Positions 3,000 through 48,042 of a DNA stretch of 64,000 bases are shown piece by piece. A model generated the notes under the pieces. That model made no database searches. It was not told the DNA's origin and saw only the letters and a list, made by a program, of their open reading frames with translations. Position numbers and translations under genes: made by a program. The DNA is from an uncultured Chitinophaga sp. (GTDB lineage: Bacteria; Bacteroidota; Bacteroidia; Chitinophagales; LD1), in assembly GCA_964493695.1 (NCBI GenBank), contig CAZBPG010000003.1, positions 124 to 64,123 on the forward strand, read 5' to 3'. Each line of letters opens with the position of its first letter. Within the stretch, counting starts at the first letter, position 1.

Positions 3000-3026
3000 A
3001 GCGCAAACATAAAGAAAAGGCAGACC

Positions 3027-4415
3027 TTAAACAGCGGCTGAATTTCTTTTTTCCACCTTCATCATCATGCCGTATTTCGGGCGGAGGGTAATGAGCGGTT
3101 CGGCTTCTACAATAAAATTTTCCTTCAGCCGGAATTTGTATTTGCGGTACATCAGTATCAGTATAATCTGCATTTCCATAATCGCAAAATTATTGCCGAT
3201 ACACAGGCGCGGACCACCACCGAAAGGGAAGTAAACGTACCGGTCAATGTTGTTTTTTAACTCCGGAGCAAAACGCTCGGGCTTAAACTTCATGGGTTCA
3301 TCCCAATACTTTTCGCTGTGGTGGAAATACATAATCGGCATCAGCACGTTCGTATCTTTCATAATACGGTAGCCGCCAATTTCATCCTCTTCATTGTTTC
3401 TTCTGCCCACAATCCATGCCGGTGGAAACAAACGCATACTTTCATCAATCACCTGACGCACATATTGGAATCCGAGAACGTTTTGAAAATTGAGTTCTAC
3501 TCCGGCATCTAACTTCTCATCAATCTCGCGAATCATTTTTGCCTCTGCTTCGGGGTTTTGAGAAAGCAGGTAAAGCGTCCATGCCATAGCATTGGCGGTA
3601 GTTTCATTACCGGCAATAAAAATAGTCATTACCTCATCGCGCAGTTGGCGGTTGTCCATCGCTTCACCGGTTTCTTCATCGCGGGCATCGAGCAACATGG
3701 AGAGCAAATCGCTTTTCGAAATTCCCTCCTTCCTTCTTTTATCAATAATGTCGTAAATAATCTTGTCCAGAATTTTTATCGCCTTGCGCTCCTGAATGTT
3801 TGTTGGAGTAGGAAACATAGCAGGCAACCGGATAGGAGAATTCAGTTTATCAGTGGCATATTGATTGAGTAAGGTAATCTGCTTGCTCACCAAATCCGCT
3901 TTATCATCTACCCCATTACTGAAAATAGCCTCCGAAATAATCTCTAAAGTAAGATTGGTCATTTGCGGAGCTACATCAAAATATTCTCCGCTTTCAGCTT
4001 TCGGCTTCATGCTATCAACCTCCTGCTGTGCCCTGCGCACCATCATAGCGGTAAGGTCAGCGAGTTTTTGTTTATGGAAAGCCGGTTGAATAAGCCTGCG
4101 CTGTTTTTTCCAGAACTCTCCTTCGCTGGTCAGCAAGCCATTCCCCAAAAGAAGACGCAGCATATCATAAGCCAGGCTCTTCCGGTAATTCTTGTTGTTG
4201 TCTACCAAAACATATTTGGCATATTCAGGCTTTGCCGCAATTACAATACGGTTAAAGGGAAGAGACAGTGAAAAAATTTCACCGTATTGCTTTATCAGCT
4301 TCGGCAAAACAGCATGGGCATTTTCGCGGAGCATGTAGCCGCTGCCAAACAGCCAATGTTTTTCTTTAGGAAAAGGAGGAACGGATTTCTTTTTTACAGG
4401 AGCTTCAGTTTCCAT
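3027..4415 (-). CDS. Cytochrome P450
   Basis: I-helix AGNETT, ExxR (ESMR), PERF and haem motif FGGGPRLCIG. Confidence 0.95.
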   Translation of the reverse strand: METEAPVKKKSVPPFPKEKHWLFGSGYMLRENAHAVLPKLIKQYGEIFSLSLPFNRIVIAAKPEYAKYVLVDNNKNYRKSLAYDMLRLLLGNGLLTSEGEFWKKQRRLIQPAFHKQKLADLTAMMVRRAQQEVDSMKPKAESGEYFDVAPQMTNLTLEIISEAIFSNGVDDKADLVSKQITLLNQYATDKLNSPIRLPAMFPTPTNIQERKAIKILDKIIYDIIDKRRKEGISKSDLLSMLLDARDEETGEAMDNRQLRDEVMTIFIAGNETTANAMAWTLYLLSQNPEAEAKMIREIDEKLDAGVELNFQNVLGFQYVRQVIDESMRLFPPAWIVGRRNNEEDEIGGYRIMKDTNVLMPIMYFHHSEKYWDEPMKFKPERFAPELKNNIDRYVYFPFGGGPRLCIGNNFAIMEMQIILILMYRKYKFRLKENFIVEAEPLITLRPKYGMMMKVEKRNSAAV

Positions 4416-9874: not shown

Positions 9875-10092
9875 AATGATTTACGGACTACAGGAAATGA
9901 TTCCCTGACAACAGTAAATGATTTACGGACTACCGGAAATGATTCCCTGACAGCAGTAAATGATTTACGGACTACCAAAAATGATTCCCTGACAGCAGTA
10001 AATGATTTACGGACCACCGGAAATGATTCCCTGACAGCAAAAAATGATTCCCTGACAGCAGAAAATGAATTACGGACTACCGGAAATGATTT
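9875..10092. repeat. Tandem array of alternating 21-bp units AATGATTTACGGACTACCGGA / AATGATTCCCTGACAGCAGTA
   Basis: 10 full units starting every 21 bp from 9875 to 10064 (order ABABABABBA) plus a partial unit. Confidence 0.95.
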
Positions 10093-10146: not shown

Positions 10147-11565
10147 ATGAACAAACGAAAATCCATCCTTGTCTGGTATGTGTTCAGCGATTATGTGGCT
10201 GCCGTGCTGGCCTGGTATTTTCTTTTCCTTTTCCGCAAAATAGTTATCGAAGGCAACCCCTTTGCTTACAACCTGCCCTTTAGCGACAGTAATTTTTGGG
10301 TAGCCATGATGATAGTGCCCGAGCTTTGGCTGCTGTTCCACTACCTTACCGGAACCTACACCGACCTCTACAAAAAATCGCGCCTGCAGGAACTGGGCAA
10401 AACCTTTATTGTAACTTTTGTAGGCAGCATTATTGTTTTCTTTCTGCTGCTGCTTGACGATTTTGTGCGCAGATATTCCGACTACTACCTCACGTTTGCG
10501 GTTTTATTCTCGCTGCAATTCTTTTTCACCTTCCTGGGCAGGTTCGTTATACTGAATGTGGTTAAAAGAAATATCTGGAGCGGCAAAGCGGGTTTCAGCA
10601 CCCTGCTTATTGGCAGCAGCCAGAAAGCAAACGAGCTGTACGAAGAAATGAAGGCCAAGGAGCGCTCCTTTGGTTTTCAGTTCACCGGTTACCTCGAACT
10701 GAACGGCAGCACTAAAAACACCCTCACTACCGAGCTGAAAGAACTTGGCAAACTCCGCGATTTGGAAAAAGTGATTGACCGGTACAGCGAGATAGAAGAA
10801 GTCATCATTGCTATCGAATCGTCCGAGCACCATCAGCTCAACGATATCCTGAACCGGCTGGCCGATAAAAATGTAACCATCCGCATCATTCCCGACATGT
10901 ACGATATCCTCTCCGGTACCGTGCGCATGAACCACGCCATCGGTGAAGCGTTTATCGAAATTCCTCCGCGCCTACTCAACGAATGGGAACGCATCACCAA
11001 ACGCTGGTTCGATGTGTGGGCTTCGCTCTTTGCGCTCTTTATCACGCTGCCGGTTACTCTGTACGTAGCGCTGCGCATAAAAATGATTGATGGCGGTCCT
11101 GTTTTTTACATGCAGGAACGCTTAGGCCAATACGGAATCCCTTTCCGCATTTATAAGTTCCGTTCCATGAAGATAAATGCCGAATCAAACGGCCCGCAAC
11201 TGACCAGCGAAAACGATGACCGCATTACCGGTATCGGTAAAACCATCCGCAAGTACCGGATAGATGAACTGCCGCAATTCATCAATGTATTAAAAGGCGA
11301 AATGAGCATTGTTGGTCCGCGTGCAGAGCGCAGATACTTTGCCGACCGCATTACCGAACTTGCGCCCCACTACCGGCACGTGTTTAAAGTGCAGCCCGGC
11401 ATCACTTCCCTCGGCATGGTTAAATACGGCTACGCTTCCACCGTTGACGAAATGGTAAAGCGCCTGAAATACGACATCATCTACATCGAAAACATGAGCA
11501 TCACACTCGACTTTAAGATAATGGTTTACACCGTGCTTACCGTTATTTACGGCAGAGGGAAATAG
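10147..11565 (+). CDS. Polyprenyl glycosylphosphotransferase (WcaJ/WbaP-like sugar transferase)
   Basis: N-terminal TM helices, a Rossmann-like middle region, and YKFRSM, RKYRIDELPQFINVLKGEMSIVGPR, PGIT motifs. Start at MNKRK. Confidence 0.92.
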   Translation: MNKRKSILVWYVFSDYVAAVLAWYFLFLFRKIVIEGNPFAYNLPFSDSNFWVAMMIVPELWLLFHYLTGTYTDLYKKSRLQELGKTFIVTFVGSIIVFFLLLLDDFVRRYSDYYLTFAVLFSLQFFFTFLGRFVILNVVKRNIWSGKAGFSTLLIGSSQKANELYEEMKAKERSFGFQFTGYLELNGSTKNTLTTELKELGKLRDLEKVIDRYSEIEEVIIAIESSEHHQLNDILNRLADKNVTIRIIPDMYDILSGTVRMNHAIGEAFIEIPPRLLNEWERITKRWFDVWASLFALFITLPVTLYVALRIKMIDGGPVFYMQERLGQYGIPFRIYKFRSMKINAESNGPQLTSENDDRITGIGKTIRKYRIDELPQFINVLKGEMSIVGPRAERRYFADRITELAPHYRHVFKVQPGITSLGMVKYGYASTVDEMVKRLKYDIIYIENMSITLDFKIMVYTVLTVIYGRGK

Positions 11566-21511: not shown

Positions 21512-22924
21512 ATGGCAAGTATGAAAAAATGTTTCCTCTTTTCAGTTCTCAGTTTATCCGCCTTCTTTATTTACGCCCAAAACAATGTAGGCATAGGAAC
21601 TCCCACACCCGATGCTTCTTCTATTCTTGAACTGAATTCAAACACCAAAGGTTTCCTTGCCCCACGCATGACTACTGCCGAGCGTCTGGCTATTGGCGCT
21701 CCGGCTACCGGTTTGCTGGTTTATGATACTTCCCTTGGCTGCTACTTCTATTATAATGGTGCATGGACATCGCTCTGTCAGTCATCTCCGGTTTGTAACA
21801 CCGCTGCTGCCGGAAACATTGCCATGTTCGCCTCTCCCGCTACTGTTTGCAACTCCGTTTTATTTCAAAGCGGAAACAATATTGGGTTAAATACCACTAC
21901 ACCGGTTCTTTCCTTTCAGGTAAATGCTACCGATGCTATCGGCCTTCCAAGCGGTACAACAGCCCAGCAACCTGTCGGTGCTCCGGTTGGCTCTATCCGT
22001 TACAATACAACGTTGGGCGCTGCCGAAGTTTACACCGGTACCTGTTGGCAGAATGTAAATACCCCGCCCATCGGCTCTACTTATGTTCAATGGTTTAACG
22101 CAGCTGACCCTAATACTATTTACCCGTGTACCCAATGGATAGGCTCGGATATAGCCAACGGTGAGTTTATCCGCGCCCGTGGCGGGGCATCGAATGTGGC
22201 AGCCGGTGGTGCATTGACCGGTACCCTTCAAAGCCATGCTGTCGAAGACCATACACATACCATCGCAGGTATCATTAACGGTTCGGGTGCGCTCACCACC
22301 TCGAGCGATGGAGCGCACACCCATAACTGGGGAGGTAACTGGAGCAATGATGACTCCCGCGATTATACAGCCGCTGCCGGTAATGGCGATGGCAACGGAA
22401 ATACGCTGAGCGACAACTCCTTTTGGTGGGGAGGAAACCCCGGCACTACCGGTAATGCCAACCAGGAATTTGCCGTGCGCACTTCTACAACTAACGGTAA
22501 CCACAGCCACACCGGTGCCACTTCAGGAGCAGTAACCAATAACCCCAATACCTGGATACCTTATGATGATAACCTGTCCAGTGATGCCAGCAACCTTTCT
22601 ATGGGCGATAACCCCACTACCTGTGGTAGCGGTTGGGACGGAAGGCATACAGCAGGAAATTTTATGGGACGATTAAGTGACGGCTGCATGGGGCATGTGC
22701 ATAACATTACTGCCGATGGCAACCACTCACACACAGTTGATTTTTATGCCCACCGTCATTTTATAAAAATGCGCGCAACTACTCTAGATGGTGCACACAC
22801 TCATACCCTTGCAGACCATACGCATACCTTTAACCTGAACGTGGGGAGTATGAACAGCGGAACATCAGGCACCGAAACCCGCCCCGATAATGTGGCAGTG
22901 GTATTTTGGAGAAGGGTGAATTGA
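21512..22924 (+). CDS. Secreted protein with phage tail-fibre/baseplate-like domains and eight HxH motifs
   Basis: Signal peptide, then an NVGIGTPTP...GFLAPRMTT module, PIGSTY...DPN...FIRA, eight HxH motifs and a terminal ETRPDNVAVVFWRRV. Confidence 0.75.
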   Translation: MASMKKCFLFSVLSLSAFFIYAQNNVGIGTPTPDASSILELNSNTKGFLAPRMTTAERLAIGAPATGLLVYDTSLGCYFYYNGAWTSLCQSSPVCNTAAAGNIAMFASPATVCNSVLFQSGNNIGLNTTTPVLSFQVNATDAIGLPSGTTAQQPVGAPVGSIRYNTTLGAAEVYTGTCWQNVNTPPIGSTYVQWFNAADPNTIYPCTQWIGSDIANGEFIRARGGASNVAAGGALTGTLQSHAVEDHTHTIAGIINGSGALTTSSDGAHTHNWGGNWSNDDSRDYTAAAGNGDGNGNTLSDNSFWWGGNPGTTGNANQEFAVRTSTTNGNHSHTGATSGAVTNNPNTWIPYDDNLSSDASNLSMGDNPTTCGSGWDGRHTAGNFMGRLSDGCMGHVHNITADGNHSHTVDFYAHRHFIKMRATTLDGAHTHTLADHTHTFNLNVGSMNSGTSGTETRPDNVAVVFWRRVN

Positions 22925-22937
22925 AAAAGCTCGGTAC

Positions 22938-23217
22938 TTTCGACATTCGTCTATTACCTCTGTAACTTCTACAGAGCCTTTGCACATTCGTCTAATACCT
23001 CTGTAACTTCTACAGACCCTTTCGACATTCGTCTATTGCCTCTGTAACTCCTACAGACCCTTTCGACATTCGTCCATTGCCTCTGTAACTTCTACAGACC
23101 CTTTCGACATTCGTCTATTGCCTCTGTAACTTCTACAGACCCTTTCGACATTCGTCCAATGCCTCTGTAACTCCTACAGACCCTTTGCACATTCGTCTAA
23201 TGCCTCTGTAACTCCTA
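22938..23217. repeat. 41-bp tandem array, about 6.8 units
   Basis: Consensus TTTCGACATTCGTCTATT-GCC-TCTGTAACTTCTACAGA-CCC; unit starts every 41 bp from 22938 to 23184. Confidence 0.95.
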
Positions 23218-23232
23218 GAGAATGTTAAAAAC

Positions 23233-23263
23233 AAAAAAGCCCTCCGAAAATCGGAGGGCTTTT
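23233..23263 (-). terminator. Intrinsic terminator of tuf, likely bidirectional
   Basis: AAAAGCCCTCCGA-AAA-TCGGAGGGCTTTT. Confidence 0.85.
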
Positions 23264-23296
23264 GTATTGTCTGACATCTAGTGTCTAACGATTGTC

Positions 23297-30715: not shown

Positions 30716-33700
30716 ATGAAAGCTGCTTTACGCAAAGTAATTTTTCTGGTTCTATCACTGATTCTTTTCAGCGCAGAGAAATTGCATGCCAACGGCTGCA
30801 CCGGTTCCTGGTTTACAATGGTTTATTCGCCCTGGTGTAACTGTTGGCAGGTTTGCGGTAATTACATCAGCGACTGCGATGAAGTAGTAAGCCTAAGCTG
30901 GAATTTTGGAGACGGCACTACCGCAACTGGCGAAAATCCTTGCCATCAGTTTCCTGGACCCGGAACTTATACTGTAACAATGACCATTGTTGCATACTGT
31001 CACAATACTTTTTTTAATCTATTCACAACAACCTGTCATATTACGCAACAGGTTGTTGTGCCGGCCAATAACCCGCCTTTGGTGGCAGATTTTGTAGCTG
31101 ATACGACCTGTTATGGAAGCCCCACAACTTTTACAAATGCGACAACCGGGCCTGGCGGAAACAATACTTACACCTGGGTATTTCCCGATGGCACAGTTAG
31201 CCATGCAGCAAACCCCAGTTACACCTTTGACAGTTGCGGAGCATTTGATGTGATGATGATTGTGCAAAACCAAGCACCATGTTGCACTTATGTAGGTGAC
31301 GACACCATTATTCAGCGTGTGTTTGTGGATTGCACTCCGTTCGAGCACTCCAACGAACTCGGACTAACCGAACCCTATATTCATGAAAGCCTGGCAACCA
31401 TTGATGTTTTATCCGGTACCTGTGCAGGCGATACTACCCGTTTTCTGATAACACCGGTCGGTCCTATTGTTCATTGGTTTTGGACTTTTCCTGACGGCTC
31501 ACTGAGTTTTTATCCTGATCCATGGTATGTTTATAACGCCTGCCCTCCTGCAATAAATTATACTACAGTAACAGTGTTTACTGATAGAGGATGTGTAGGA
31601 TACATTGATTCCCTTACCGGAATATTTTGTCCCTCTAACATTGGGCTGAATTACACAGAGCCGCTTTGTACCGGTCAATGCAGTGCTACAGCAACTACTA
31701 CTTTATCCGGAGGGACTCCACCTTACACTGTAGAATGGAGTGACCCTAACAATCAGACAACTGCAACTGCCACTAATCTTTGTCCGGGGAACTACACCGT
31801 TACAATTACGGATGGTAACGGGTGCACTGCCACCCCGAATCAACCGGTAACGGTAACTGATTTTCCTTATCCATTTTTGGGGTTGGTTTCAGCCGGAAGT
31901 ACTATCCTTTGCTATGGTGATTACGGAGGATCTGCTGTTTTGAACATGAGCGGAGGTACTCCACCATACACTTTCTTTTGGGCAAACGGTGTTGCCGATA
32001 GCAGCGTTACAGGATTACAGGGAGGCAATACCAACGTAACCGCTACCGATGCACACGGATGCACTTTTGTTGGCACCGCCTTTATCTGGCAACCGGACCC
32101 AATGGATGCAATTATTACTTCAGGCAATGCGGCTTGTGGTATGTGTAATGGTTCTGCAAATGCAGAAGGTACAGGCGGACACTTTATTTACAATTATGAA
32201 TGGTTAACCACACCGGTGCAAACCACCGCTTATATCGGCAATCTTTGTGCGGGAATATATCTGGTAGAAGTGGAAGATGCCACAGTGCCGGGGTGTTTAG
32301 ATACAGTAACAGCAATTGTGAATGAAACCGGTGCACAAGCAATTAGTGTTTCTTCTGTAAATGCTACTTGCTCAAACATTTGCAACGGCAACGCGACAGT
32401 TACATTTACGGGCGGGTGCAATGATCCTCCATGTACTGTCGAGTGGCTCGACTCTTCCGGAGCACCTATAAATCAAACATCTGTTACCGCAACAGGTTTG
32501 TGTGAAGGCGATTTCATTGTTCATATTACTAATGGATTGGGCTGTAATTCATTTGCAAGCTTCAGCATCGCAGTTCCTAATCCGGTTGTGCCAAATACTG
32601 CTACCACGGTAAATAGTTGCGGGGGTTCCTGTAACGGAAGCATTACAGTAACCACAACAGGAGGAACTGCTCCTTATACAAATGCCTGGCTGGACAGTAA
32701 CGGCATTTTAATTGCCGGTCAAACAAACGCCATCATAAATAATTTGTGTACTGGAAATTACTTCGCTCAGGTAACCGATCAATCCGGATGCATCGCTGTT
32801 GCTTCAGCCACCATTTATGGGAATCCGTTTAATGCTACCGCTACCGGAAACTCCGTTTTATGCAATGGAGATTGTAATGGAATGGTTACTGCTATAGCCA
32901 CAGCAGGCACAACGCCATACTCGTATTCTCTGTTAGATGGAAACAATAACACCGTTTATTCCGGAAACAGTTTTGTTATTGCTAATCTGTGTTCAGGCAG
33001 TTACACTTTAAATGCGTTAGATGCGGGCGGATGCACGGTAAGTGTTCCGGTAAGTATTTCACAACCCGCAGCAATAAATCCTGTTACTTCTACAATAGAG
33101 CCTTCTTGCTTCGGCAACTGTAACGGAACAGTTTCGGTAACCGTTTCCGGGGGAACACCTCCATTCACATACGAATGGAGAAATAGTATTGGTTCTTTGA
33201 TTGGCACAACCTCTTCCATAAATAATCTTTGTGCGGGCACTTATGCAGTTCAGGTTACAGACTCAAATCATTGCATTACACCATTCGTACCGGTTGTATT
33301 GAACCAGCCACTGGCTTTACTCGATTCAGTAGAAATTATTGATCCCTACTGTAACGGGGGACAGGGGTCTATTGATCTCACTCCATTTGGCGGAACTTCT
33401 CCTTATGCTTTCACGTGGAACACAGGCGATACTACAGAAGATATAGGCGGACTTTCAGGCGGAAATTTTTCTGTATTGATACAAGACGCAAACAATTGCG
33501 TAAGAAACGTGGCCGTTACATTCACTTTACTTCCACCGCTTGTAACGAGTATTGCAGCACATTCCTATAACGGGTATCACTTTAAATGCTACAACGGCAA
33601 CGATGGAGAAGTAGTTTTAGATGTAACCGGTGGATTACCGCCCTATACTTATTTGTGGGATGACCCGCAGAATTCTACCGTTGACTCCATTTACGGTTTG

Positions 33701-39045: not shown

Positions 39046-42000
39046 ATGAAATACAAATTGCTCAATAACATCTTCGGATGGGTTTCCTTTGCTTTCGCTG
39101 CTGTGGTGTATGGTATGACCATGGAAAGCACCGGCAGTTTCTGGGACTGTGGTGAGTTCATTTCAGGTTGCTTTAAATTACAGGTAGTTCACCCACCGGG
39201 TGCCCCTTTCTTTTTAATGCTCGGCAGAATCTTTACCCTTCTTTCAGGAGGCGACCCTTTAGTAAACGGAACAGGAGGCAATGTTGCCCTTTCCATCAAT
39301 TTAATGAGTGCTTTGGCCACAGCCGCTTCGGTAATGTTTACTTTCTGGACGGTGACCGCACTTGCCCGCAAGTTTGTGTTCAAAGACGGCAACTACACCA
39401 CCGGTGGAATCATCACCGTGATTGGTGCCGGTTTAGTGGCTGCTGCTTCCTGCACGTTCCTCGATTCGCTTTGGTTCAGCGCGGTAGAAGGTGAGGTTTA
39501 CGCCTTATCGCAATTCTTTATGTCGTTCATTTTCTGGGCTATTATGAAATGGGAAGCCGATGACAGCAAGTATGCCGACCACTGGTTGGTGCTTATCTCC
39601 TACATGACCGGTCTTTCCATAGGTGTTCACTTGCTCAGCTTGCTCGCGCTCCCTGCAATTGCTTTGGTTTACTACTACAAAAAATTCAAAACCACATTGA
39701 CCGGATGGATGGCTGCGGCAGGTATCGGCTTCTTGATTCTCGGGCTTTATATGAAATTCATTATCTCCTTTACGCAATCGTATTTAGCGGGAATGGATTT
39801 GTTTTTTGTAAACACACTGAATTTACCGTTTAACTCGGGTGTAATTTTCGGATTGTTGTTACTGGTGGCCGTTTTGTTTTTTATTATCCGCTTCACCCAC
39901 TCCGGCAGCGAAACAGATTTCAGGATTGCCATGGGAGTTAGTATTGCCTACGTAATCATCGGCTTTGTTATTTCCGATAGCTGGACAGCCCGCTTACTGC
40001 GCTTGCTGTTCCCTGTTTTTGTATATGTGGCAAATAAACACGGCTACGAATCAAGAAGGCTGCTGAACATAGGTATACTATCCATTGCCTTTTCTTACAT
40101 CGGTTACATGAGTTACATCATGGTGCCTATCCGAGCTATCGCGAATCCGCCCATTAACATGAACCGGCCAACAGATCCGTTCACGATTAAGTCATATGTT
40201 GACCGTGAGCAATACGGTGACCGCCCTTTATTAAAAGGGCCGGATTACACCGTAACTTCTTACGATATTGAAGATTATATAAAGACCGGTGAACGCTGGG
40301 TAAAAGACGAAAAGAAAAAGCAATACGTTTACGGAGGCGATAAACAGGATTACAAATTCCGCGATGATGTGCAGATGCTTTTCCCGCGCCTTGGTTTCTG
40401 GCAGGAAGAAGGAAAGAAAGCCGGTTACCGCGCCTGGTTAAATCCGGAATACAATGTGGTGGACCGTGCTTCGAAAAATGTGGTAAAAACTTTCCCTCCT
40501 TCTGGTTTAAAACAGGCAAATGAGTATGCGGCCGGTTTAAACAAAGATGGCGGGCAGAATCAGTACTACGTAAAGGACGCCATTACATTTGCCGATAACA
40601 TGCGGTTCTTCTTCAAATATCAGATTGGCTACATGTATTTCCGCTATTTCTTCTGGAATTTCTCAGGGCGCCAAAACGATGTTCAGGGAACCTACGGCAA
40701 CGATGACGGCCGATGGATTTCAGGCATTCCTTTCATAGATAACTCACACAAATTCTTTACACCGGAATGGCCGCAGGACAATCTTTCTAAATCAATGCTG
40801 GCTAACAAAGCGAGGAATAAATTTTACATGATTCCTTTTATTCTCGGTTTAGCCGGTTTGATATTCACGTTGTTTAAAGACGAAAGAACCTTCTGGATTA
40901 TCCTCGTGCTTTTCGGCACTACCGGTTTCCTGCAGATTATTTATCAGAACGAACCACCGATAGAGCCGCGCGAAAGAGATTACGCCATAGCCGGTTCCTT
41001 TATCATGTTTACCATGTGGATGGGCTTCGGGGTAATTGCGCTGATTGATTTCCTGAAAAAGAAACTACCGGAAGTACCCAGTGCCATTGGTGCCGTGGTT
41101 TTGTGTGCCATTGCTCCTTTCTTAATGGGCTCTCAATGCTGGGACGACCATACCCGTCACAACCGGTATCCGGCACGCGACTTCGCTATTGATTATTTGG
41201 AATCCTGCGCACCAAACGCCATTGTGTTTACACAAGGCGATAACGATACCTATCCGCTTTGGTATGCACAGGAAACCGAAGGCGTACGCCCCGATATCCG
41301 CATCATCAATCTTTCGCTGTTAGGTGTTGACTGGTATATCGAGCAACTGAATTACAAAACAAATGAAGCGGCACCGGTTAAGCTCACGTTTAAACCCGAA
41401 CAATACGAAGGCAACAACCGCGATGTAGTTCGCTTTAAACAGGATGCCCGGATACCGGATGGAACTTCGGTAGAGTTGAAACGCGTGATGCAGTTTATAG
41501 GGAGCGAAGATGCCCGCGATAAAGTAATGTATCAGAACGGTGAAAGCGAAAACTATCTTCCTTCAAAAAATTTCTACTTGGATGTAGATACAGATAAAGT
41601 GAAGGCCATGAACATGGTGGCACCGGAAGATTACGGACAGATTGTTCCGCGCATGAACTGGACAATTGATAACAGTGCCTTGCTGAAAAACGATTTGCTC
41701 ACGCTTGACATTGTAGCAAACAACCTGATGGAGCGCCCAATCTATTTCGCTGTTTCGGTAGCACCCGAAGCCTACATGGGGCTGGAGAAATATTTCCAGT
41801 TGGAAGGTTTAACTTACCGGGTAGTGCCGAAAGAAAACCCGAGCAACTCGCCATACAACGCACCGGCACGCACCGATGTAATGTATGAGAACATGATGAA
41901 GAAATTCAGGTTTGCGGGTATTGCCGAAAACAAAAATGTTTATCTGGATGAAAACACCCTGCGCATGACGGTGAACATCCGCGGCAACTTCGGCCGCCTT

Positions 42001-42441
42001 GCACAGGCATTGCTCGATAAAGGCGAAAAAGAAAGAGCCGCAGCCGTAATTGATTACTCGCTCAAGGTAATGCCGCCTGACCGGGTTGAACATTCGGTGT
42101 TCGATTATTCGTATCCGGAAGTTTACTACGAAGCAGGACAGAAAGAGAAAGCCCGCGCGTTGGTAAACGAAATGTTCGACAAGGCGAAAGATGAACTCAA
42201 CTATTACAAGGGAGTTTATCAGTTCTCGCTGAACCAGGCGCGCGATGCAGGCGACATGGCCTACTTCAGCCAGTTGCAGCAGGGTGCCTTTATGGAGCGC
42301 AGAGAAGTGCGCGAACAGCTTTTCATTATGCAGGAACTTACATTGGCCTCTAAGAAATATGATGATGCCGATTTCAGCGCTAAAATTGACAAGACCTTCC
42401 AGGACTACCGGATGAGTTTTGTGCAGATGCCGAAACAGTAA
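39046..42441 (+). CDS. DUF2723 family membrane protein (TMEM260-like GT-C glycosyltransferase)
   Basis: SFWDCGEFI, VVHPPGAPFF, WFSAVEGEVYA, RERDY and GDNDTYPLWY motifs. Confidence 0.92.
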   Translation: MKYKLLNNIFGWVSFAFAAVVYGMTMESTGSFWDCGEFISGCFKLQVVHPPGAPFFLMLGRIFTLLSGGDPLVNGTGGNVALSINLMSALATAASVMFTFWTVTALARKFVFKDGNYTTGGIITVIGAGLVAAASCTFLDSLWFSAVEGEVYALSQFFMSFIFWAIMKWEADDSKYADHWLVLISYMTGLSIGVHLLSLLALPAIALVYYYKKFKTTLTGWMAAAGIGFLILGLYMKFIISFTQSYLAGMDLFFVNTLNLPFNSGVIFGLLLLVAVLFFIIRFTHSGSETDFRIAMGVSIAYVIIGFVISDSWTARLLRLLFPVFVYVANKHGYESRRLLNIGILSIAFSYIGYMSYIMVPIRAIANPPINMNRPTDPFTIKSYVDREQYGDRPLLKGPDYTVTSYDIEDYIKTGERWVKDEKKKQYVYGGDKQDYKFRDDVQMLFPRLGFWQEEGKKAGYRAWLNPEYNVVDRASKNVVKTFPPSGLKQANEYAAGLNKDGGQNQYYVKDAITFADNMRFFFKYQIGYMYFRYFFWNFSGRQNDVQGTYGNDDGRWISGIPFIDNSHKFFTPEWPQDNLSKSMLANKARNKFYMIPFILGLAGLIFTLFKDERTFWIILVLFGTTGFLQIIYQNEPPIEPRERDYAIAGSFIMFTMWMGFGVIALIDFLKKKLPEVPSAIGAVVLCAIAPFLMGSQCWDDHTRHNRYPARDFAIDYLESCAPNAIVFTQGDNDTYPLWYAQETEGVRPDIRIINLSLLGVDWYIEQLNYKTNEAAPVKLTFKPEQYEGNNRDVVRFKQDARIPDGTSVELKRVMQFIGSEDARDKVMYQNGESENYLPSKNFYLDVDTDKVKAMNMVAPEDYGQIVPRMNWTIDNSALLKNDLLTLDIVANNLMERPIYFAVSVAPEAYMGLEKYFQLEGLTYRVVPKENPSNSPYNAPARTDVMYENMMKKFRFAGIAENKNVYLDENTLRMTVNIRGNFGRLAQALLDKGEKERAAAVIDYSLKVMPPDRVEHSVFDYSYPEVYYEAGQKEKARALVNEMFDKAKDELNYYKGVYQFSLNQARDAGDMAYFSQLQQGAFMERREVREQLFIMQELTLASKKYDDADFSAKIDKTFQDYRMSFVQMPKQ

Positions 42442-42453
42442 CACTACACACAT

Positions 42454-42486
42454 AACCCCGAACGGGTTTAAAACCCGTTCGGGGTT
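42454..42486. repeat. REP-like palindrome, copy 3 of the 7730 family
   Basis: AACCCCGAACGGGTT-TAA-AACCCGTTCGGGGTT, with a compensatory change relative to copy 1. Confidence 0.9.
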
Positions 42487-42495
42487 TTTCTTTTT

Positions 42496-43260
42496 ATGAA
42501 AGAACCCAAACAACACTTTTGCATTTTCGGACGAAAGCCCATTATTGAAGCGTTCAAAGCAGGAAAACGTTTCGATAAGATTCTGTTATTGAAATCGTGG
42601 AAGAGCGAAGAGATAACCGAAATTCAAAAGCTGGCGGCAGAAACCGAAACACCGGTGCAGGGTGTTCCTAAAGAAAAACTGGAAGCCGTTGCCAAAAAGT
42701 ATTCAAAGTATCAGACCTATAGCCACGAAGGGGTAATTGGCTTTCTTTCGCTTATCAATTATTACAGTATTGACGATGTGCTGCACAACGTTTATGCAAA
42801 AGGGCAAACGCCTTTGTTTATAGTGCTCGATGGCGTAACCGATGTGGGAAACTTTGGTGCCATTGCCCGCTCGGCTGAATGTATGGGTGTTCACGCGCTC
42901 ATTATTCCTGCACAGGGCTCGGCACAAATAAATACCGAAGCCATGAAAGCCAGTGCCGGTTCGCTCACACATCTTTTAGTATGCCGCGAAAAGAGTTTGC
43001 TAAACGCCATCAACTATCTAAAGACAAACGGCATCCGCATTTACGGAACCGAGATGCGCGAATCTTCCGAAATTTCGAAAGCAGACTTTACCGTGCCTTG
43101 TGCCATTGTCATGGGCTCCGAAGGCATGGGTATATCAAAAGAAATTCTGCGCGCCTGCGATGAACGCGTGCGCATTCCCATGACCGGTAAAACAGAATCG
43201 CTCAACGTTTCGGTAAGCACCGGTATTGTGTTGTATGAGGCTTTGAGACAGCGGCAGTAG
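42496..43260 (+). CDS. rlmB: 23S rRNA (G2251) 2'-O-methyltransferase, TrmH family
   Basis: LDGVTDVGNFGAIARSA, GSEGMG and IPMTGKTESLNVSV motifs. Confidence 0.93.
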   Translation: MKEPKQHFCIFGRKPIIEAFKAGKRFDKILLLKSWKSEEITEIQKLAAETETPVQGVPKEKLEAVAKKYSKYQTYSHEGVIGFLSLINYYSIDDVLHNVYAKGQTPLFIVLDGVTDVGNFGAIARSAECMGVHALIIPAQGSAQINTEAMKASAGSLTHLLVCREKSLLNAINYLKTNGIRIYGTEMRESSEISKADFTVPCAIVMGSEGMGISKEILRACDERVRIPMTGKTESLNVSVSTGIVLYEALRQRQ

Positions 43261-43321: not shown

Positions 43322-43537
43322 ATGAAAACAATTAAATTAACAGAAGAAATAGCGGAGATAGAAACATACGTACGCAAGCTTAGTGTACGTGAGCGAAATG
43401 TTTTATTGAAACAACTTCGCAAAAAATTTTTGATGCAGGAGGCTAAGCGGCTGAGTAAATCTGTGCGGAAAGAACCGGTTATTTCTATTGAGGATATTGT
43501 GGCGGAAGTAAACAAAGTACGAAAGAATGCCGCTTGA
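43322..43537 (+). CDS. Putative antitoxin partner of the PIN toxin
   Basis: 71-aa basic helical ORF ending ISIEDIVAEVNKVRK; overlaps the PIN gene start. Confidence 0.7.
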   Translation: MKTIKLTEEIAEIETYVRKLSVRERNVLLKQLRKKFLMQEAKRLSKSVRKEPVISIEDIVAEVNKVRKNAA

Positions 43538-43946
43538 CAGAGTTGTATTAGACAGCAACACCTGGCTCAGTTATTTCTATTACAATGAGTTTGAAAAACT
43601 GGTAGAGATAAGCGAAGATTTAGAAGTTAAGATTTATACCTCCCAAAAACAGTTGCAGGAAATTAAGGCTGTATTGCAACGTCCTAAGTTCAAAAATAAA
43701 ATCGCCTTACCTGCCTTTGACTATATCAACTTCATAAAACATATCGCTTACGTTATCAAAATTGATGAGCGGTTTGACCGCATTACCGATACCAACGATA
43801 ATTACTTATTCGATATTGCCTACACGGCTAAATGCAGTCATGTAGTTACTGATGATAAAGCAGTGCTGCTGCTAAAGCACGTTGGTAAAATTTAAATTAT
43901 TTCAAAAGAAGATTTTAAGAAGAGTATCAGAAAATTGAAGCGTTGA
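43527..43946 (+). pseudogene. PIN-domain toxin with a probable premature TAA at 43893..43895
   Basis: VVLDSN, EIKAVL, DTNDNYL and VVTDDK PIN residues. The frame continues IISKEDFKKSIRKLKR to a TGA at 43946. Confidence 0.7.
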
Positions 43947-44497: not shown

Positions 44498-45352
44498 TTA
44501 CTGCACCACTAATTTACCTGCACTAATTTTTTGCGAAGAAGAAACAACCTGATACAAATACATTCCCTTACTTACTTCATTCAACTCTACGCGGTTTGTG
44601 GCACCGGTTAGTTGTTTCTGCAAAACCATTCTGCCGGTTATATCGAAGAGTTGGAAAGAAGTTTTTTCGGGAAGATTAGTTTCTGATTGAATGGTGACGG
44701 AGGTGGTGGCGGGGTTGGGAAAGAGATGAAAAAGGTTCTGTACTTTCTCTTTTATTCCTGTTGCAGAATTGTAAATACAGGTATCTATGAAAGGGTCGTG
44801 ATATAACAATTGAGAATTTTCAAAATAACACAACAGCCACCAATCGGGACCGTCTACTGTTAAAAACTCTGTTTCCGGATGCAAAAAGTGAGAATAAATA
44901 GAACCGACACCATCAATCCATATATCAGGATACGGACCAATAAATATTCTCTTGCGCCAATGCCCTATATAAACAGAATCAACCGAATCAATGATTGCTG
45001 TGTAGGTTTGTAAATTTTCATCGTTTTGCAAATTGTAAATTGTATCCCCTTTATTGACTCCAAAATCATAAAGAAATACCTCCGATGTATCGGTTTGGTA
45101 CTTATAGATTCGGTTAGCCGTATCCCTTCTCATAAAATGTCCCGATATGTTTTGATATGAAACTCCGGCAAGAACAGTATCCGATTCGCTTAGGAAAACA
45201 AGAGTTAAGTAGTAGTCAGGATATGGTAACCATGTATCATAATACAAAACCACATTCCACTGCGCAGTTGAATCCGCAAACCGGAAATCAGTTTGAGCAA
45301 ACAGCCCGTTAACCGAAACTGAAATAAGAAGAAGGAGTAAATACTTTTTCAT
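44498..45352 (-). CDS. T9SS type-A sorting domain protein
   Basis: Signal peptide; WIDGVGS; CTD LFPNPA...FDITGR...GMYLY...KLVV. Confidence 0.9.
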   Translation of the reverse strand: MKKYLLLLLISVSVNGLFAQTDFRFADSTAQWNVVLYYDTWLPYPDYYLTLVFLSESDTVLAGVSYQNISGHFMRRDTANRIYKYQTDTSEVFLYDFGVNKGDTIYNLQNDENLQTYTAIIDSVDSVYIGHWRKRIFIGPYPDIWIDGVGSIYSHFLHPETEFLTVDGPDWWLLCYFENSQLLYHDPFIDTCIYNSATGIKEKVQNLFHLFPNPATTSVTIQSETNLPEKTSFQLFDITGRMVLQKQLTGATNRVELNEVSKGMYLYQVVSSSQKISAGKLVVQ

Positions 45353-45454
45353 GCCTTATATACCCTGCAAGATAAAACTAAAAAGCTGTCCGCATTACAC
45401 TCTCTTAAAAAATGACATTTCTATGACAATCCTCACCGCTATTTACTTAACCCC

Positions 45455-45740
45455 TGTTACCGATTAGTTACACTGCCTGTATCTTTCATAATGCCTGTAA
45501 CTTTTCGGTAACATGTTCTGTAACTATTACAGATTCTGTAACTATTCGGTGACATCTTCTATAATAAATACAGACCTTGTAACTATTCGGTGTCATAGGC
45601 TATAACTATTACAGGTTATGTAACTATTTAGTTACATACTCTATATTTTATACAGAAGCTGTAACTATTCGGTTACAACTTCTGTATTTTATAAAACAGA
45701 TGTCACCGAATAGTTACACCGTCTATTAACTTCTTATAAC
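45455..45740. repeat. Degenerate 41-bp-period array, homologous to 22938..23217
   Basis: 18-bp TGT(A/C/T)AC-N6-GT(T/G/A)ACA-like units start at 45455, 45496, 45537, 45578, 45619, 45660 and 45701, separated by 23-bp linkers containing TCTGTA-N5-TACAGA-like sequence. Confidence 0.9.
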
Positions 45741-45833
45741 AGATAACCGCATAATTTTCTGTATGGAAAAACCGTTATCCATACATCATCTGAAAAGTAT
45801 TGAACCGGTTTTGCGAACCATAATTCAATTTGT

Positions 45834-46556
45834 ATGAGCAAGAAAAAAGTGCGCCTGCTGCTGAACAGCTTTGAAATACAAACCAGGCGCAGCCACAAAA
45901 AAGCAGTTTCGCTTAGTTTTGGAACTATCCGCAAACTAAGCCCGGTAACGGTGCCTGCTTTGCAGCAAATACATAACGATTACCTGCCCCATCATGAAGC
46001 GTACATCAACCTCGACACTGCGGTGGGGATGCTGGAAGGAACCTATAAGGGCAAAACAAATTCCTTTATACTTCTAATAAACAACCTGCCGGTTAAACTC
46101 CGGCAATGGGAAGCCCCTATACACACAGTTTTTATGGAAGATTCAGCGGAGGCCATAGACATATTTTCGCGCAAGCGCACTCCTTTTTATGTGGGCACGT
46201 ATGAGCAGCGGCTAATGGCTATTCGTGTGCTGCGCAATAAACTGGCAGAATATATTGCTGCTTACCCTGCACTGGCACCGGTGCAGACAGATGTAGCCAC
46301 TTATTGCACACTGGCAGAAACTGCGCGCAGTTTGCAGCAAGGCAAAGAAGGCAACCTGGGCGAATTGCGGACCCTTCGCGAAGCTCAGCGCGTTGCTACT
46401 ATGAATGCTTATTGGGGAATAGTGTACTGTGGTTTAATGAGGCAGTTTTATACCAACCCTGCAGAGGTAGCCGCCTTTATTGAGTTTGAACTGTTGTATG
46501 AAAAAGAAAAAGAGGAAGAGGAAGGTGATGAAGGGCTAACCGGTGCCATAGTTTAA
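45834..46556 (+). CDS. Hypothetical helical protein (240 aa) downstream of the 41-bp array
   Basis: Intact ORF with an acidic tail; no signal peptide or recognisable catalytic motif. Confidence 0.75.
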   Translation: MSKKKVRLLLNSFEIQTRRSHKKAVSLSFGTIRKLSPVTVPALQQIHNDYLPHHEAYINLDTAVGMLEGTYKGKTNSFILLINNLPVKLRQWEAPIHTVFMEDSAEAIDIFSRKRTPFYVGTYEQRLMAIRVLRNKLAEYIAAYPALAPVQTDVATYCTLAETARSLQQGKEGNLGELRTLREAQRVATMNAYWGIVYCGLMRQFYTNPAEVAAFIEFELLYEKEKEEEEGDEGLTGAIV

Positions 46557-47396: not shown

Positions 47397-47747
47397 TCAA
47401 GCCATCAGTATCTCGTACGGAATTCCGAATGAATCGTGAAGGGCGCGGATCATTCGTTTAGAAAGTTCTCGCTTACGGTTCAACACTTCCGAAACCTTGC
47501 TTTTATCGCCAATGGCTTTTTCAAGGTCTTTTCTTTCAATCCCTTTTTCTTCCATCAGGTACTTAATCGCCTCGACCGGGTCCGGTGCTTCAATAGGAAA
47601 GTTCACTTCTTCGTAATTATCTACCAGCGTTGCCAAAACATCCAGTTCATCGCCCTGTGGTGTTCCGCTCTTTGAACCCCAAAGAATTTCCATACGCTTG
47701 ATAGCTTCGCTGTAATCGCGCTTTGTTTTTATTGGTTTAATATTCAT
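47397..47747 (-). CDS. higA: HigA antitoxin (HTH)
   Basis: IKPIKT...ELDVLATLVDNYE...PDPVEAIK...SEVLNRKRELS. Confidence 0.93.
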   Translation of the reverse strand: MNIKPIKTKRDYSEAIKRMEILWGSKSGTPQGDELDVLATLVDNYEEVNFPIEAPDPVEAIKYLMEEKGIERKDLEKAIGDKSKVSEVLNRKRELSKRMIRALHDSFGIPYEILMA

Positions 47748-47748
47748 A

Positions 47749-48042
47749 TCAAATGTTTTTTACGTCAATTTTATCGTAGGCTTTATGTGTCCCTATAAAC
47801 CGAATCCAAAGAATCTGTTTTTCGTAATCCAAAGCAGCCACTAACCGGTAGTCGTTCCCTTTTATATTAAAAACCACTCTGTCATTACCAACCACGCTTG
47901 CGTTACCAAACTTTGCTTTTAGCTGATTAAAACTCTTCCACTCCGCCTTTTTTACTTCACTAAACCATGTTTTAAGCGGTGTTTCCGCATCCGCATGTTT
48001 CTCCCAAAAACTTCTGAGGGTGCTTCGCGCAATAATTCTCAT
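47749..48042 (-). CDS. higB: HigB toxin
   Basis: MRIIARSTL...VVFNIKGNDYRL...IRFIGTHKAYD. Confidence 0.93.
   Translation of the reverse strand: MRIIARSTLRSFWEKHADAETPLKTWFSEVKKAEWKSFNQLKAKFGNASVVGNDRVVFNIKGNDYRLVAALDYEKQILWIRFIGTHKAYDKIDVKNI

What the first reader, a model, noticed from the sequence alone, without database searches (positions are those of the whole stretch)
45455..45740. 41-bp lattice of palindromic sites with individually inverted units
Seven 18-bp quasi-palindromes start exactly 41 bp apart. Units 2-6 read TGTAAC-T(A/T)TT(CG/TA)-GT(A/G/T)(A/T)CA. Units 1 and 7 are reversed: unit 7 (TGTCACCGAATAGTTACA) is the exact reverse complement of unit 3, and unit 1 is close to the reverse complement of unit 2. 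The linkers keep their orientation. Simple slippage cannot give local inversion in unchanged register. This suggests a dimeric protein or recombinase acting on the sites, or selection for phased sites (about four helical turns, in 20/21-bp halves that both start CTGTAAC). The array fills a divergent promoter region 93 nt upstream of an orphan gene. It is the best candidate here for an undescribed array-plus-gene system.
Basis: partly seen in the sequence, partly recalled or inferred. Interest (0 to 1): 0.75.

Follow-up and report, generated by a model that had tools for sequence, protein, structure and literature searches.

The report
Conserved 41-bp array upstream of gene
A row of seven 41-base repeats in front of an uncharacterised gene is the local copy of an undescribed element: across the phylum Bacteroidota, two unrelated families of unknown proteins nearly always carry such an array just upstream, with the repeat length fixed at 41-42 bases while the repeat sequence changes completely.

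Summary
Seven 18-bp quasi-palindromes sit exactly 41 bp apart at 45455-45740. Unit 7 is the exact reverse complement of unit 3, and unit 1 matches the reverse complement of unit 2 at 16/18.

The gene at 45834-46556 is not an orphan. It belongs to a family of about 900 clusters (50% identity) that matches no annotation library searched.

Of 23 distinct homologous loci, 19 have a tandem array within about 230 bp upstream of the ATG. The period is 41 bp in 18 and 42 bp in one. The units fall into at least 8 sequence-unrelated classes. DUF6261 genes, with no detectable sequence relationship, carry the same kind of array in 3 of 3 lineages examined.

Units hold one or two short palindromes whose arms co-vary, but there is no G·U over A·C excess on either strand. 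Flipped units recur in another locus (L017). A conserved promoter-like element lies between array and gene.

Best reading (about 0.45): a helically phased double-stranded DNA scaffold upstream of the core promoter. Unit flips would be tolerated by-products of the palindromes. A transcribed hairpin array (about 0.27) is not excluded. No recombinase evidence was found.

The parts
45455..45740 (.). Tandem array W3: 7 units of 41 bp. Each unit is an 18-bp 'A' palindrome plus a 23-bp linker that holds a 'B' palindrome.
   Evidence: Homologous arrays in 19 of 23 related loci.
45455..45472 (.). Unit 1 A site, TGTTACCGATTAGTTACA, flipped relative to units 2-6.
   Evidence: 16/18 to the reverse complement of the unit 2-6 consensus, 11/18 forward.
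45496..45677 (+). Units 2-6: A sites TGTAAC-TATTCG-GTTACA at 45496, 45537, 45578, 45619 and 45660, centre in the ATTC orientation shared with related arrays. B palindromes CTRTAAC..TACAG at 45518-45532, 45559-45573, 45600-45614 and 45641-45655. The sixth linker palindrome, 45682-45699, lies just beyond the end given here.
   Evidence: The B palindrome class co-varies across 12 arrays.
45701..45718 (.). Unit 7 A site, TGTCACCGAATAGTTACA, the exact reverse complement of unit 3. The inverted segment extends over about 45691-45724.
   Evidence: (inverted repeat I4).
45726..45755 (+). Promoter-like element TTAACT-N18-CATAAT between array and gene (inferred core promoter; not a canonical Bacteroidota -33/-7 promoter).
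   Evidence: The same element, TTAACx-N18/19-yAyAAT, ends 66-68 nt before the ATG in 11 further locus records (about 8 distinct loci), including a 32%-identical homologue.
45760..45785 (+). Inverted repeat TGTATGGAAAA / TTATCCATACA. It includes the motif CGTTATCC, which is conserved about 50 nt before the ATG in many homologous loci. Role unknown.
   Evidence: (inverted repeat I20).
45834..46556 (+). Gene for a 240-aa member of an uncharacterised Bacteroidota family. This is the short form: it has the helical N-domain only, while most homologues (about 330 aa) carry an extra C-terminal beta-sandwich.
   Evidence: No Pfam, NCBIfam, PHROG or PADLOC match.
22937..23221 (+). Second array of the same class (W2), 7 x 41 bp with 92% matches, and no family gene beside it. 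It lies between the stop codon of the 470-aa gene (22924) and a bidirectional terminator (about 23233-23265) ahead of tuf.
   Evidence: Its consensus unit is 36/41 identical to the array upstream of homologue P0007 in L008.

Best explanation
The lattice is one copy of a Bacteroidota-wide class of promoter-proximal tandem arrays, and it most likely works as double-stranded DNA.

Each 41-bp unit spans about four helical turns. It carries two short two-fold-symmetric sites 20/21 bp apart (about two turns), so all sites face the same side of the helix. The array ends a few bases to a few tens of bases upstream of the core promoter of the adjacent gene.

A still unidentified factor, presumably dimeric, would load cooperatively along that face, or the DNA would wrap or curve coherently, and so set transcription of the gene. 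Copy number, which appears to change in steps of exactly 41 bp, would tune the effect.

The flipped units are by-products of the palindromes: template switching or recombination between the arms inverts the segment around its dyad and so keeps the register. They are tolerated because the sites are read symmetrically.

Shown: the array-gene linkage, the fixed period with free sequence, the symmetry covariation, the absence of a strand-specific wobble excess, the recurrence of flips, and the position of a conserved promoter-like element.

Inferred: binding of a factor, the action on transcription, and the origin of the flips.
For: 1. Linkage. 19 of 23 distinct loci encoding homologues (down to about 30% identity; Chitinophagales, Bacteroidia and Flavobacteriales MAGs) have a 3-8-copy array ending 42-230 bp before the ATG. 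No other 41-bp array occurs in their roughly 130 kb of flanks.

2. Period. It is 41 bp in 18 loci and 42 bp in one, although units fall into at least 8 classes with no similarity above shuffled controls. L095 keeps 41 bp through a +7/-7 compensation inside the unit.

3. Second family. DUF6261 genes carry 41/42-bp arrays in 3 of 3 lineages, and hhalign gives probability 0.2 for any relationship. The element is therefore general.

4. Symmetry. The arms of the 19-bp B palindrome co-vary: 91 double-change cells against 32 +/- 5 in shuffles, 0/500 shuffles reaching the observed value.

5. No strand-specific wobble. Non-Watson-Crick cells show no G·T excess: 38 against 42 A·C within arrays, 8 against 5 at consensus level, and 9 against 18 in inner B pairs. 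RNA folding energies do not consistently favour one strand across arrays (the antisense strand is the more stable in most).

6. Flips. Unit flips in an unchanged register occur in W3, and about half the units of L017 are flipped. Hairpin centres are inverted in L015 and L085.

7. Promoter position. TTAACx-N18/19-yAyAAT lies between array and ATG at a fixed 66-68 nt from the ATG in 11 locus records (about 8 distinct loci); W3 has it at 78 nt. In L098 an upstream terminator abuts the array start.

8. One array (L095) has no palindromes but keeps 20/21-bp direct half-units.
Against: - No binding factor is identified.
- The adjacent proteins are acidic (median pI 5.1 and 4.5) and show no recognised DNA-binding fold.
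- Palindrome arms vary freely while the centres (ATTC; YTT) are conserved and mostly in one orientation relative to the gene. That is the pattern expected of stem-loops rather than of dimer operators.
- Covariation at inner stem positions points to base-pairing itself being maintained.
- The promoter-like element does not match the canonical Bacteroidota -33/-7 consensus.
- One locus (L100) has a perfect canonical promoter 4 nt upstream of the array, pointing into it.
- Two arrays (W2, L054) lie in 3' or intergenic positions where transcription through them is likely.
- The sense strand is pyrimidine-rich in 17 of 23 arrays.
- No transcription start site data exist.
Confidence: 0.45

Rival explanations
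1. Transcribed hairpin array. The array is part of a long 5' leader, or of a separate non-coding RNA. Each 41-nt unit folds into two short stem-loops with conserved loops (AUUC, YUU) separated by C/U-rich linkers. The row of hairpins would bind or titrate an RNA-binding protein, or stabilise or regulate the mRNA.
For: - Two hairpins per unit, with variable co-varying stems and conserved, mostly sense-oriented loops.
- Two alternating but both foldable B variants within one array (L054).
- L017's mixed-orientation units would give long hairpins.
- A perfect canonical promoter sits 4 nt upstream of the L100 array.
- A shared CGTTWTTTGAAA motif lies about 20 nt upstream of the arrays in L001, L014 and L015.
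- W2 lies between a stop codon and a terminator.
- The sense strand is pyrimidine-rich and G-poor in 17 of 23 arrays.
Against: - No G·U over A·C excess on the sense strand in any count.
- Folding energy does not favour the sense strand.
- No Rfam match, even at E <= 1.
- L095 has no hairpins.
- Loops are inverted in L015, L085 and W3 units 1 and 7.
- RNA gives no obvious reason for an invariant 41-nt period with compensated indels.
- A conserved promoter-like element lies downstream of the array.
Confidence: 0.27
2. Self-contained array-protein module. The product of the adjacent gene itself assembles on its own array (DNA or RNA), as centromere-binding proteins do on parC or sopC. This would give autoregulation or a higher-order nucleoprotein particle, and each paralogue would recognise its own unit sequence.
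For: - Tight one-to-one linkage across about 30-100% protein identity.
- Paralogues in one genome have different units: L003 type against L010, L008 against L011, L001 against L018.
- Array sequence classes follow protein subfamilies.
- The N-terminal 40 residues are basic (median pI 9.35; 12.0 in the window protein), with conserved Lys and Arg.
- Loci often lie in variable or defence-type neighbourhoods: toxin-antitoxin modules in the window, and CRISPR-cas in L013 and L102.
Against: - The whole proteins are acidic, and DUF6261 has pI 4.5.
- No nucleic-acid-binding fold was recognised.
- Two sequence-unrelated families share the array type, which favours a common external factor.
- Gene-less arrays exist (W2, L054).
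- There is no partner ATPase or other conserved neighbour.
Confidence: 0.13
3. Non-functional satellite. A hairpin-containing promoter-proximal segment was amplified by slippage or unequal crossing-over. The palindromes are kept perfect by quasi-palindrome template switching rather than by selection.
For: - Apparent copy-number differences in exact multiples of 41 bp with identical proteins: 1.6/4.6/5.6 copies and 3.7/5.7 copies.
- The spectrum of mismatches looks neutral.
- Flips and end-capping inverted copies are typical of palindrome mutagenesis.
Against: A neutral satellite would not do the following:
- Persist in front of two gene families across orders.
- Hold its period at 41/42 bp through complete sequence turnover and compensated indels.
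- Keep 3-8 copies at a similar distance from the ATG.
Confidence: 0.1
4. Recombinase target. A site-specific recombinase acts on the palindromic sites and inverts single units or segments, giving phase variation.
For: - Sites have inverted arms around an asymmetric centre, as recombination sites do.
- Two units are flipped in W3, and several in L017.
Against: - No recombinase gene lies next to the array in the window or in the related loci. The only integrase seen is 1 kb away in one locus, beside a CRISPR array.
- Direct sites 41 bp apart are too close for synapsis and would be resolved by deletion.
- Identical orientation patterns appear in independent assemblies of the same locus (L003-L006).
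Confidence: 0.03

Closest known systems
Plasmid centromere and iteron arrays (F sopC, 12 x 43 bp each with a short inverted repeat; R1 parC; R6K 7 x 22-bp iterons). Recalled from established knowledge, not tested here.
   Same: - Tandem units of about 2 or 4 helical turns.
- Each unit carries a short inverted repeat.
- Placed upstream of, or overlapping, the promoter of the adjacent gene.
- Several to a dozen copies.
- Function depends on phased cooperative binding.
   Different: - These arrays are chromosomal and present in several copies per genome.
- No ParA/ParB/ParR or Rep partner is present, and the adjacent protein is acidic with no recognised DNA-binding fold.
- The unit sequence is free while the period is fixed.
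- The same array type serves two unrelated gene families.
REP/BIME palindromic units of enterobacteria (established knowledge).
   Same: - Short imperfect palindromes in intergenic DNA.
- Units can occur in either orientation (as in W3 and L017).
- Some copies lie at 3' ends of genes (W2, L054).
- Stems co-vary.
   Different: - REPs are dispersed in hundreds of copies with variable spacing and are not tied to a gene family.
- Here there is a strict head-to-tail 41-bp lattice, preferentially upstream of two families.
- No RAYT-type transposase was seen.
Promoter-proximal variable-number tandem repeats and upstream curved or phased activating DNA (established knowledge).
   Same: - The position immediately upstream of a promoter-like element.
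- Apparent copy-number polymorphism in whole units.
- The period is close to an integral number of helical turns.
   Different: - Known cases are single loci in single species.
- Here the architecture is conserved across orders and through complete sequence turnover.
CRISPR and TIGR arrays.
   Same: - A regular array next to a protein gene.
- Palindromic repeats.
- Two family loci lie inside CRISPR-cas loci (L013, L102).
   Different: - There are no variable spacers: units are near-identical and head-to-tail.
- The partner is neither a Cas nor a Nop-domain protein.

Membership tests
CRISPR array | Repeats separated by unique spacers of similar length. | tested here: not met
   Units abut head-to-tail with period 41 and no unique segments.
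CRISPR array | Adjacent cas genes. | tested here: not met
   No cas gene lies among the ORFs at 42-50 kb. PADLOC gives no match for the adjacent protein.
TIGR-Tas | A tandem array with two variable spacer segments per unit and a Nop-domain Tas protein. | tested here: not met
   Units are near-identical. The protein has no Pfam domain at all.
Any Rfam RNA family | Covariance-model match at gathering score, or at least E <= 1. | tested here: not met
   At gathering score the window yields only tRNAs. At E <= 1 nothing falls on the arrays of L008, L011, L014 or L015.
Plasmid-type centromere (parC/sopC) with its binding protein | Tandem, helically phased units each with an inverted repeat, upstream of the operon. 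| tested here: met
Plasmid-type centromere (parC/sopC) with its binding protein | The adjacent gene encodes a ParB/ParR/RHH/HTH-type DNA-binding protein, with a partner NTPase. | tested here: not met
   No Pfam, NCBIfam or PDB-sequence match. Foldseek finds no DNA-binding fold. No conserved neighbour gene.
Plasmid-type centromere (parC/sopC) with its binding protein | The protein binds the array. | not testable with these tools
   Needs EMSA or a footprint.
REP/BIME | Imperfect palindromic units about 20-40 nt long, in either orientation. | tested here: met
REP/BIME | Hundreds of dispersed copies genome-wide, not tied to particular genes; an associated RAYT transposase. | tested here: inconclusive
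   Only 64 kb plus about 130 kb of flanks could be inspected. In the flanks, arrays occur only beside the family gene; the window has one gene-less 41-bp array and one 42-bp array. No whole genome was available.
Invertible promoter (inverton) | A promoter segment flanked by inverted repeats, with a nearby serine or tyrosine recombinase. | tested here: not met
   No recombinase ORF lies near 45455-45740. The flipped pieces are single units, not a promoter segment.
DUF6261 (PF19775) | Pfam model match of the adjacent protein. | tested here: not met
   hmmscan finds no hit for the window protein or its homologues. hhalign of the family profile against a DUF6261 profile gives probability 0.2.

The most novel reading that the evidence does not exclude
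The array and the adjacent protein form a self-contained, previously unknown nucleoprotein system of Bacteroidota. An acidic helical protein would assemble on a sequence-free but length-fixed 41-bp (or 41-nt) lattice encoded next to its own gene. Paralogue-specific pairs would exist, with a preference for variable or defence regions, including positions between a CRISPR array and its cas genes. Its function would be other than simple transcriptional control, for example defence, DNA anchoring or particle formation.
Probability: 0.13. Interest if true: 0.9.

Novelty: new variant of a known kind. Interest (0 to 1): 0.72.

Why it matters
A non-coding element whose length is held to the base pair while its sequence is free is rare, and it points to a geometric reading of DNA or RNA. 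Here it is found across a whole phylum and attached to two large protein families of entirely unknown function: about 900 clusters for one, and Pfam DUF6261 for the other. DUF6261 includes members from gut Parabacteroides.

The finding gives both families a first handle, namely a shared and experimentally tractable cis-element. It also gives Bacteroidota gene regulation a new element type and a clear test: start-site mapping plus re-phasing of the units. If the adjacent proteins bind the arrays, this would be a new nucleoprotein system.

Tried and rejected
- **Rfam**, at gathering score and at E <= 1: nothing on the arrays.
- **Protein libraries.** Pfam, NCBIfam, PHROGs, PADLOC and PDB-sequence searches gave nothing. 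Foldseek on AF2 models of both families found only weak jelly-roll or cupin-like hits for the C-domain and non-significant helical-bundle hits.
- **Viral origin.** No relative in IMG/VR or in phage genomes.
- **Metagenome scan** for ACATTCGTC-N32-ACATTCGTC. 42 of the 72 hits are 41-bp arrays, but the pattern itself imposes that period. Most look like eukaryote-type satellites with sparse ORFs, so the scan is not evidence of wider distribution. Only L054 and L085 were useful.
- **ECF-sigma promoter per unit** (TGTAAC ... CGTC): the spacing is wrong (15 or 22 nt), and the motif is absent from most arrays.
- **LytTR box:** only L020/L021 resemble it.
- **Canonical Bacteroidota promoter scan.** It gave one perfect hit upstream of an array (L100) and one between array and gene (L011). 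That is about what chance gives over roughly 5000 positions, so it is uninformative.
- **Whole-array RNA folding on both strands.** It is dominated by inter-unit pairing and shows no consistent strand preference.
- **Literature.** Searches for 41-bp or 41-nt arrays, Bacteroidetes tandem repeats and DUF6261 found nothing relevant. One possibly relevant preprint (10.64898/2026.09.22.753630) could not be opened.
- **Homology between the two protein families:** rejected at sequence level.

Full report
**1. The observation**

Reading 45200-46000 shows seven 18-bp sites of the form TGTAAC-N6-GTTACA. They start at 45455, 45496, 45537, 45578, 45619, 45660 and 45701, an exact 41-bp step. The pattern, allowing up to 2 mismatches, has 15 hits in the window against 2.8 +/- 1.7 expected, and seven of them form this lattice. 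TRF reports period 41 (4.6 copies, 72% matches) and an 82-bp super-period. The repeat finder gives five in-register copies spaced 41 bp apart.

Unit 7 equals the reverse complement of unit 3 at 18/18. Unit 1 matches the reverse complement of unit 2 at 16/18, against 11/18 in the forward sense. The arms TGTAAC/GTTACA are self-complementary, so what is really inverted is the asymmetric centre (TATTCG against CGAATA or CGATTA) together with whichever arm carries the variant base.

The linkers contain a second palindrome, CTRTAAC..TACAG.

First, the orientation of linkers 1, 6 and 7 cannot be decided (10/10/9 forward against 9/12/11 reverse, out of 23). Second, the inverted piece at the right end is about 34 bp long, not 18 (45691-45724 against 45654-45687, 27/34). 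An inversion symmetric about a palindrome's dyad keeps the register automatically.

**2. The gene**

45834-46556 encodes 240 aa with no Pfam, NCBIfam, PHROG or PADLOC match. It is not an orphan. A word-indexed search found 15 relatives, mostly about 330 aa. The extra roughly 90 residues are C-terminal, so the start codon is shared. A profile search of 1.84 billion cluster representatives found 903 clusters at E <= 1e-3 and 308 at E <= 1e-30. All sources that name any of them call them hypothetical proteins, from Bacteroidota (Chitinophagales, Bacteroidia, Flavobacteriales, Bacteroidales MAGs).

An AF2 model of a full-length member (pLDDT 84) shows a long helical N-domain, with helices of 43 and 60 residues, and a C-terminal beta-sandwich. 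Foldseek gives only weak jelly-roll or cupin-like hits for the C-domain, including Ena3A, PirA and small phage proteins, and nothing convincing for the helical part. The family is absent from viral contigs and phage genomes. The proteins are acidic (median pI 5.1), apart from a basic N-terminal 40 residues.

**3. The array travels with the gene**

I collected 23 distinct loci encoding homologues at about 30-69% identity.

Nineteen have a TRF-detectable tandem array of 3-8 copies ending 42-230 bp upstream of the ATG. These are W3, L001, L002, L003, L007, L008, L010, L011, L014, L015, L018, L019, L020, L094, L097, L098, L100, L102 and L104.

The other four are as follows:
- L009 sits at a contig edge.
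- L016 has its array 1.1 kb upstream.
- L013 has its array 236 bp downstream of the gene, with a CRISPR leader upstream.
- L017 has a decayed lattice of about 41 bp with units in mixed orientation.

In the roughly 130 kb of flanks no other 41-bp array occurs. Neighbouring genes are not conserved. The unit of inheritance is therefore array plus gene.

**4. The period is fixed and the sequence is free**

The period is 41 bp in 18 arrays and 42 bp in one (L104). Consensus units compared at every rotation and on both strands fall into at least 8 classes whose best identity does not exceed the shuffled controls (17.4 +/- 1.5 of 41).

In L095 the unit has about 7 extra bases after the ATTCG core and about 7 fewer after GTAAC, compared with its relatives. 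It is still 41 bp.

Identical proteins occur with 1.6, 4.6 and 5.6 copies (L096, L094, L095) and with 3.7 and 5.7 copies (L111, L109). The differences are exact multiples of 41 bp. These come from short-read assemblies, so collapse of the repeats cannot be excluded.

**5. Anatomy of the units**

In the subfamily nearest the window, each unit has two parts.

The first is an 'A' palindrome: variable 5-6-bp arms around a conserved centre, which is ATTC, or AATC or CATC in some arrays. Examples are TTGGAC-ATTC-GTCCAA, TTCCAT-ATTC-ATGGAA and CAGAC-AATC-GTCTG. In W3 it is TGTAAC-TATTCG-GTTACA.

The second is a 19-bp 'B' palindrome, YTC-N5-YTT-N5-GAR.

Over 51 distinct B units from 12 arrays, one of them linked to a DUF6261 gene, 82.8% of cells pair. 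There are 91 double-change cells against 32 +/- 5 in shuffles (0 of 500 shuffles reached the observed value), and slid-partner controls collapse. Complementarity of the arms is therefore maintained.

The non-Watson-Crick cells show no excess of G·T (an RNA wobble on the sense strand) over A·C:
- 38 against 42 within arrays.
- 8 against 5 at consensus level.
- 9 against 18 in the inner B pairs.

RNA folding energies do not favour the sense strand across arrays; the antisense strand is the more stable in most. One array (L095) has no palindromes at all, but keeps direct 20/21-bp half-units beginning AATACC.

Flipped units recur. About half of L017's units are inverted, and the hairpin centre is inverted in L015 and L085.

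**6. Position relative to the promoter**

A sigma-70-like element, TTAACx-N18/19-(C/T)A(T/C)AAT, lies between array and ATG. Its second hexamer ends 66-68 nt before the ATG in 11 locus records, about 8 distinct loci, including L097, whose protein is only 32% identical to the window's. In W3 it is at 45726-45755 (TTAACT-18-CATAAT), 78 nt before the ATG and 8 bp after unit 7. A further motif, CGTTAT, is conserved about 50 nt before the ATG.

This is not the canonical Bacteroidota -33/-7 promoter. A scan for that consensus gave one perfect hit upstream of an array (L100) and one between array and gene (L011), about the chance expectation. In L098 a terminator-like hairpin of the upstream gene abuts the first unit. 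The transcription start is therefore not established. The conserved element suggests that it lies downstream of the array.

**7. The element is general**

The window holds a second array of the same class at 22937-23221 (7 x 41 bp, 92% matches). Its consensus is 36/41 identical to the array upstream of homologue P0007 in L008. No family gene lies beside it: it sits between a stop codon and a bidirectional terminator ahead of tuf. L054 is a similar gene-less copy between two genes on the minus strand.

One hit of the metagenome scan (L085) lay next to a DUF6261 gene. Following this up, three DUF6261 lineages all have arrays ending about 45-75 bp before the ATG:
- L085, 41 bp x 4.8.
- L106, 42 bp x 3.6.
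- L107 and L109-L112, 41 bp x 3.7-5.7. This lineage comes from a Parabacteroides MAG, and its unit has a TTCCCGCG-CTT-CGCGGGAA palindrome.

DUF6261 proteins are all-alpha and acidic (pI 4.5). They show no sequence relationship to the first family (hhalign probability 0.2). The only paper mentioning DUF6261 is unrelated.

**8. Interpretation**

Several features argue that the element is read as double-stranded DNA with two-fold symmetry:
- The invariant period, close to four helical turns, with half-sites at two turns.
- The compensated indel in L095.
- The tolerance of flips.
- The absence of any strand-specific wobble excess.
- A conserved promoter-like element immediately downstream.

I therefore favour a phased scaffold just upstream of the core promoter (about 0.45). 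It would be bound cooperatively by an unidentified factor, or would act through coherent curvature or wrapping.

Recombination or template switching between palindrome arms inverts the enclosed segment about its dyad, which preserves the register. This is established behaviour of quasi-palindromes and is inferred here, not shown.

The main difficulty is that the arms are free and co-vary while the centres are conserved and mostly oriented. That is the signature of stem-loops, so a transcribed hairpin array remains a serious rival (about 0.27).

A third possibility is that the adjacent protein itself assembles on the array, in the manner of parC or sopC (about 0.13). The one-to-one linkage and paralogue-specific units fit this. 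The acidity of the proteins, the lack of any known nucleic-acid-binding fold, the sharing of the array type by two unrelated families, and the gene-less arrays weigh against it.

A neutral satellite (about 0.10) cannot explain the conserved period and position. A recombinase (about 0.03) has no support.

**9. Comparison with known systems and novelty**

The array is not a CRISPR or TIGR array, because it has no spacers and no Cas or Tas protein. It matches no Rfam family. It is not an inverton. It does not meet the protein criterion for a plasmid-type centromere.

It resembles sopC, parC and iteron arrays in geometry, and REP/BIME elements in its palindromic, flip-prone units.

I found no description of 41-bp arrays linked to these families. 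One possibly relevant preprint could not be opened.

I rate it a new variant of a known kind, namely phased tandem site arrays. There is a modest chance that it is a categorically new array-protein system.

Noticed in passing
window 9875-10092: A third tandem array, with period 42 bp made of alternating 21-bp half-units (AATGATTTACGGACTACCGGA / AATGATTCCCTGACAGCAGTA; 93% matches at period 42). It lies between the stop codon of a plus-strand gene (about 9816) and a WbaP-like sugar-transferase gene starting near 10149. It is possibly the same kind of phased upstream element on a third type of gene.
   Followed up: partly
L013 1-4300; L102 458-6981: Two family loci lie between a CRISPR array and its cas genes. 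In L013 the order is CRISPR (30-nt repeat GTTTCAATTCCTCAATGGTACGATTATTAC, 26-787), family gene 1144-1881, 41-bp array 2117-2393, then cas2, cas1 and cas4 on the minus strand. In L102 the order is CRISPR (period 76, 458-2317), 41-bp array 2560-2769, gene 3001-3981, then cas9 on the minus strand from 4063. Other loci have toxin-antitoxin neighbours. This may mean a preference for variable or defence regions, or it may be chance.
   Followed up: partly
window 43322-43895 and 47397-48042: Two toxin-antitoxin pairs flank the locus. One is a small ORF plus a PIN_3-domain toxin (43322-43537 / 43527-43895). The other is a HigB-like / HigA-like pair on the minus strand (47749-48042 / 47397-47747); those two names were judged from the translations only.
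   Followed up: partly
L094 / L095 / L096 and L109 / L111: Identical proteins and flanks occur with arrays of 4.6, 5.6 and 1.6 copies, and of 5.7 and 3.7 copies. The differences are exact multiples of 41 bp. This is either real copy-number polymorphism between samples or collapse of the repeats in short-read assembly.
   Followed up: partly
window 39046-43260; L104 1536-4161: In the Flavobacteriales locus L104 the family gene is followed by a SpoU-type methylase and a PMT_2 glycosyltransferase. The window has a large PMT-like membrane protein (39046-42441) and a SpoU-like methylase (42496-43260) 2.6 kb upstream of the family gene. This may be remnant synteny. The window proteins were named from their translations only.
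   Followed up: no
window 21512-22924: A 470-aa protein with a signal-peptide-like N-terminus matches 'phage tail repeat like' weakly and several PHROGs of unknown function (best E = 2e-10). The gene-less array W2 starts 13 bp after its stop codon.
   Followed up: partly
window 31787-33639: Hits to the TGTAAC-N6-GTTACA pattern with 1-2 mismatches recur at steps of about 243-246 bp (32387, 32630, 32873, 33119). This suggests a diverged tandem repeat of about 81 codons inside a large coding region, unrelated to the array.
   Followed up: no
L011 2837-2860; window 45691-45724: Arrays can end in an extended palindrome. In L011 the sequence after the last A site (TCGGAATAGCTCC) is the inverted copy of the sequence before it (GGAGCTATTCC). 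This parallels the flipped last unit of W3 and suggests fold-back events at array ends.
   Followed up: partly
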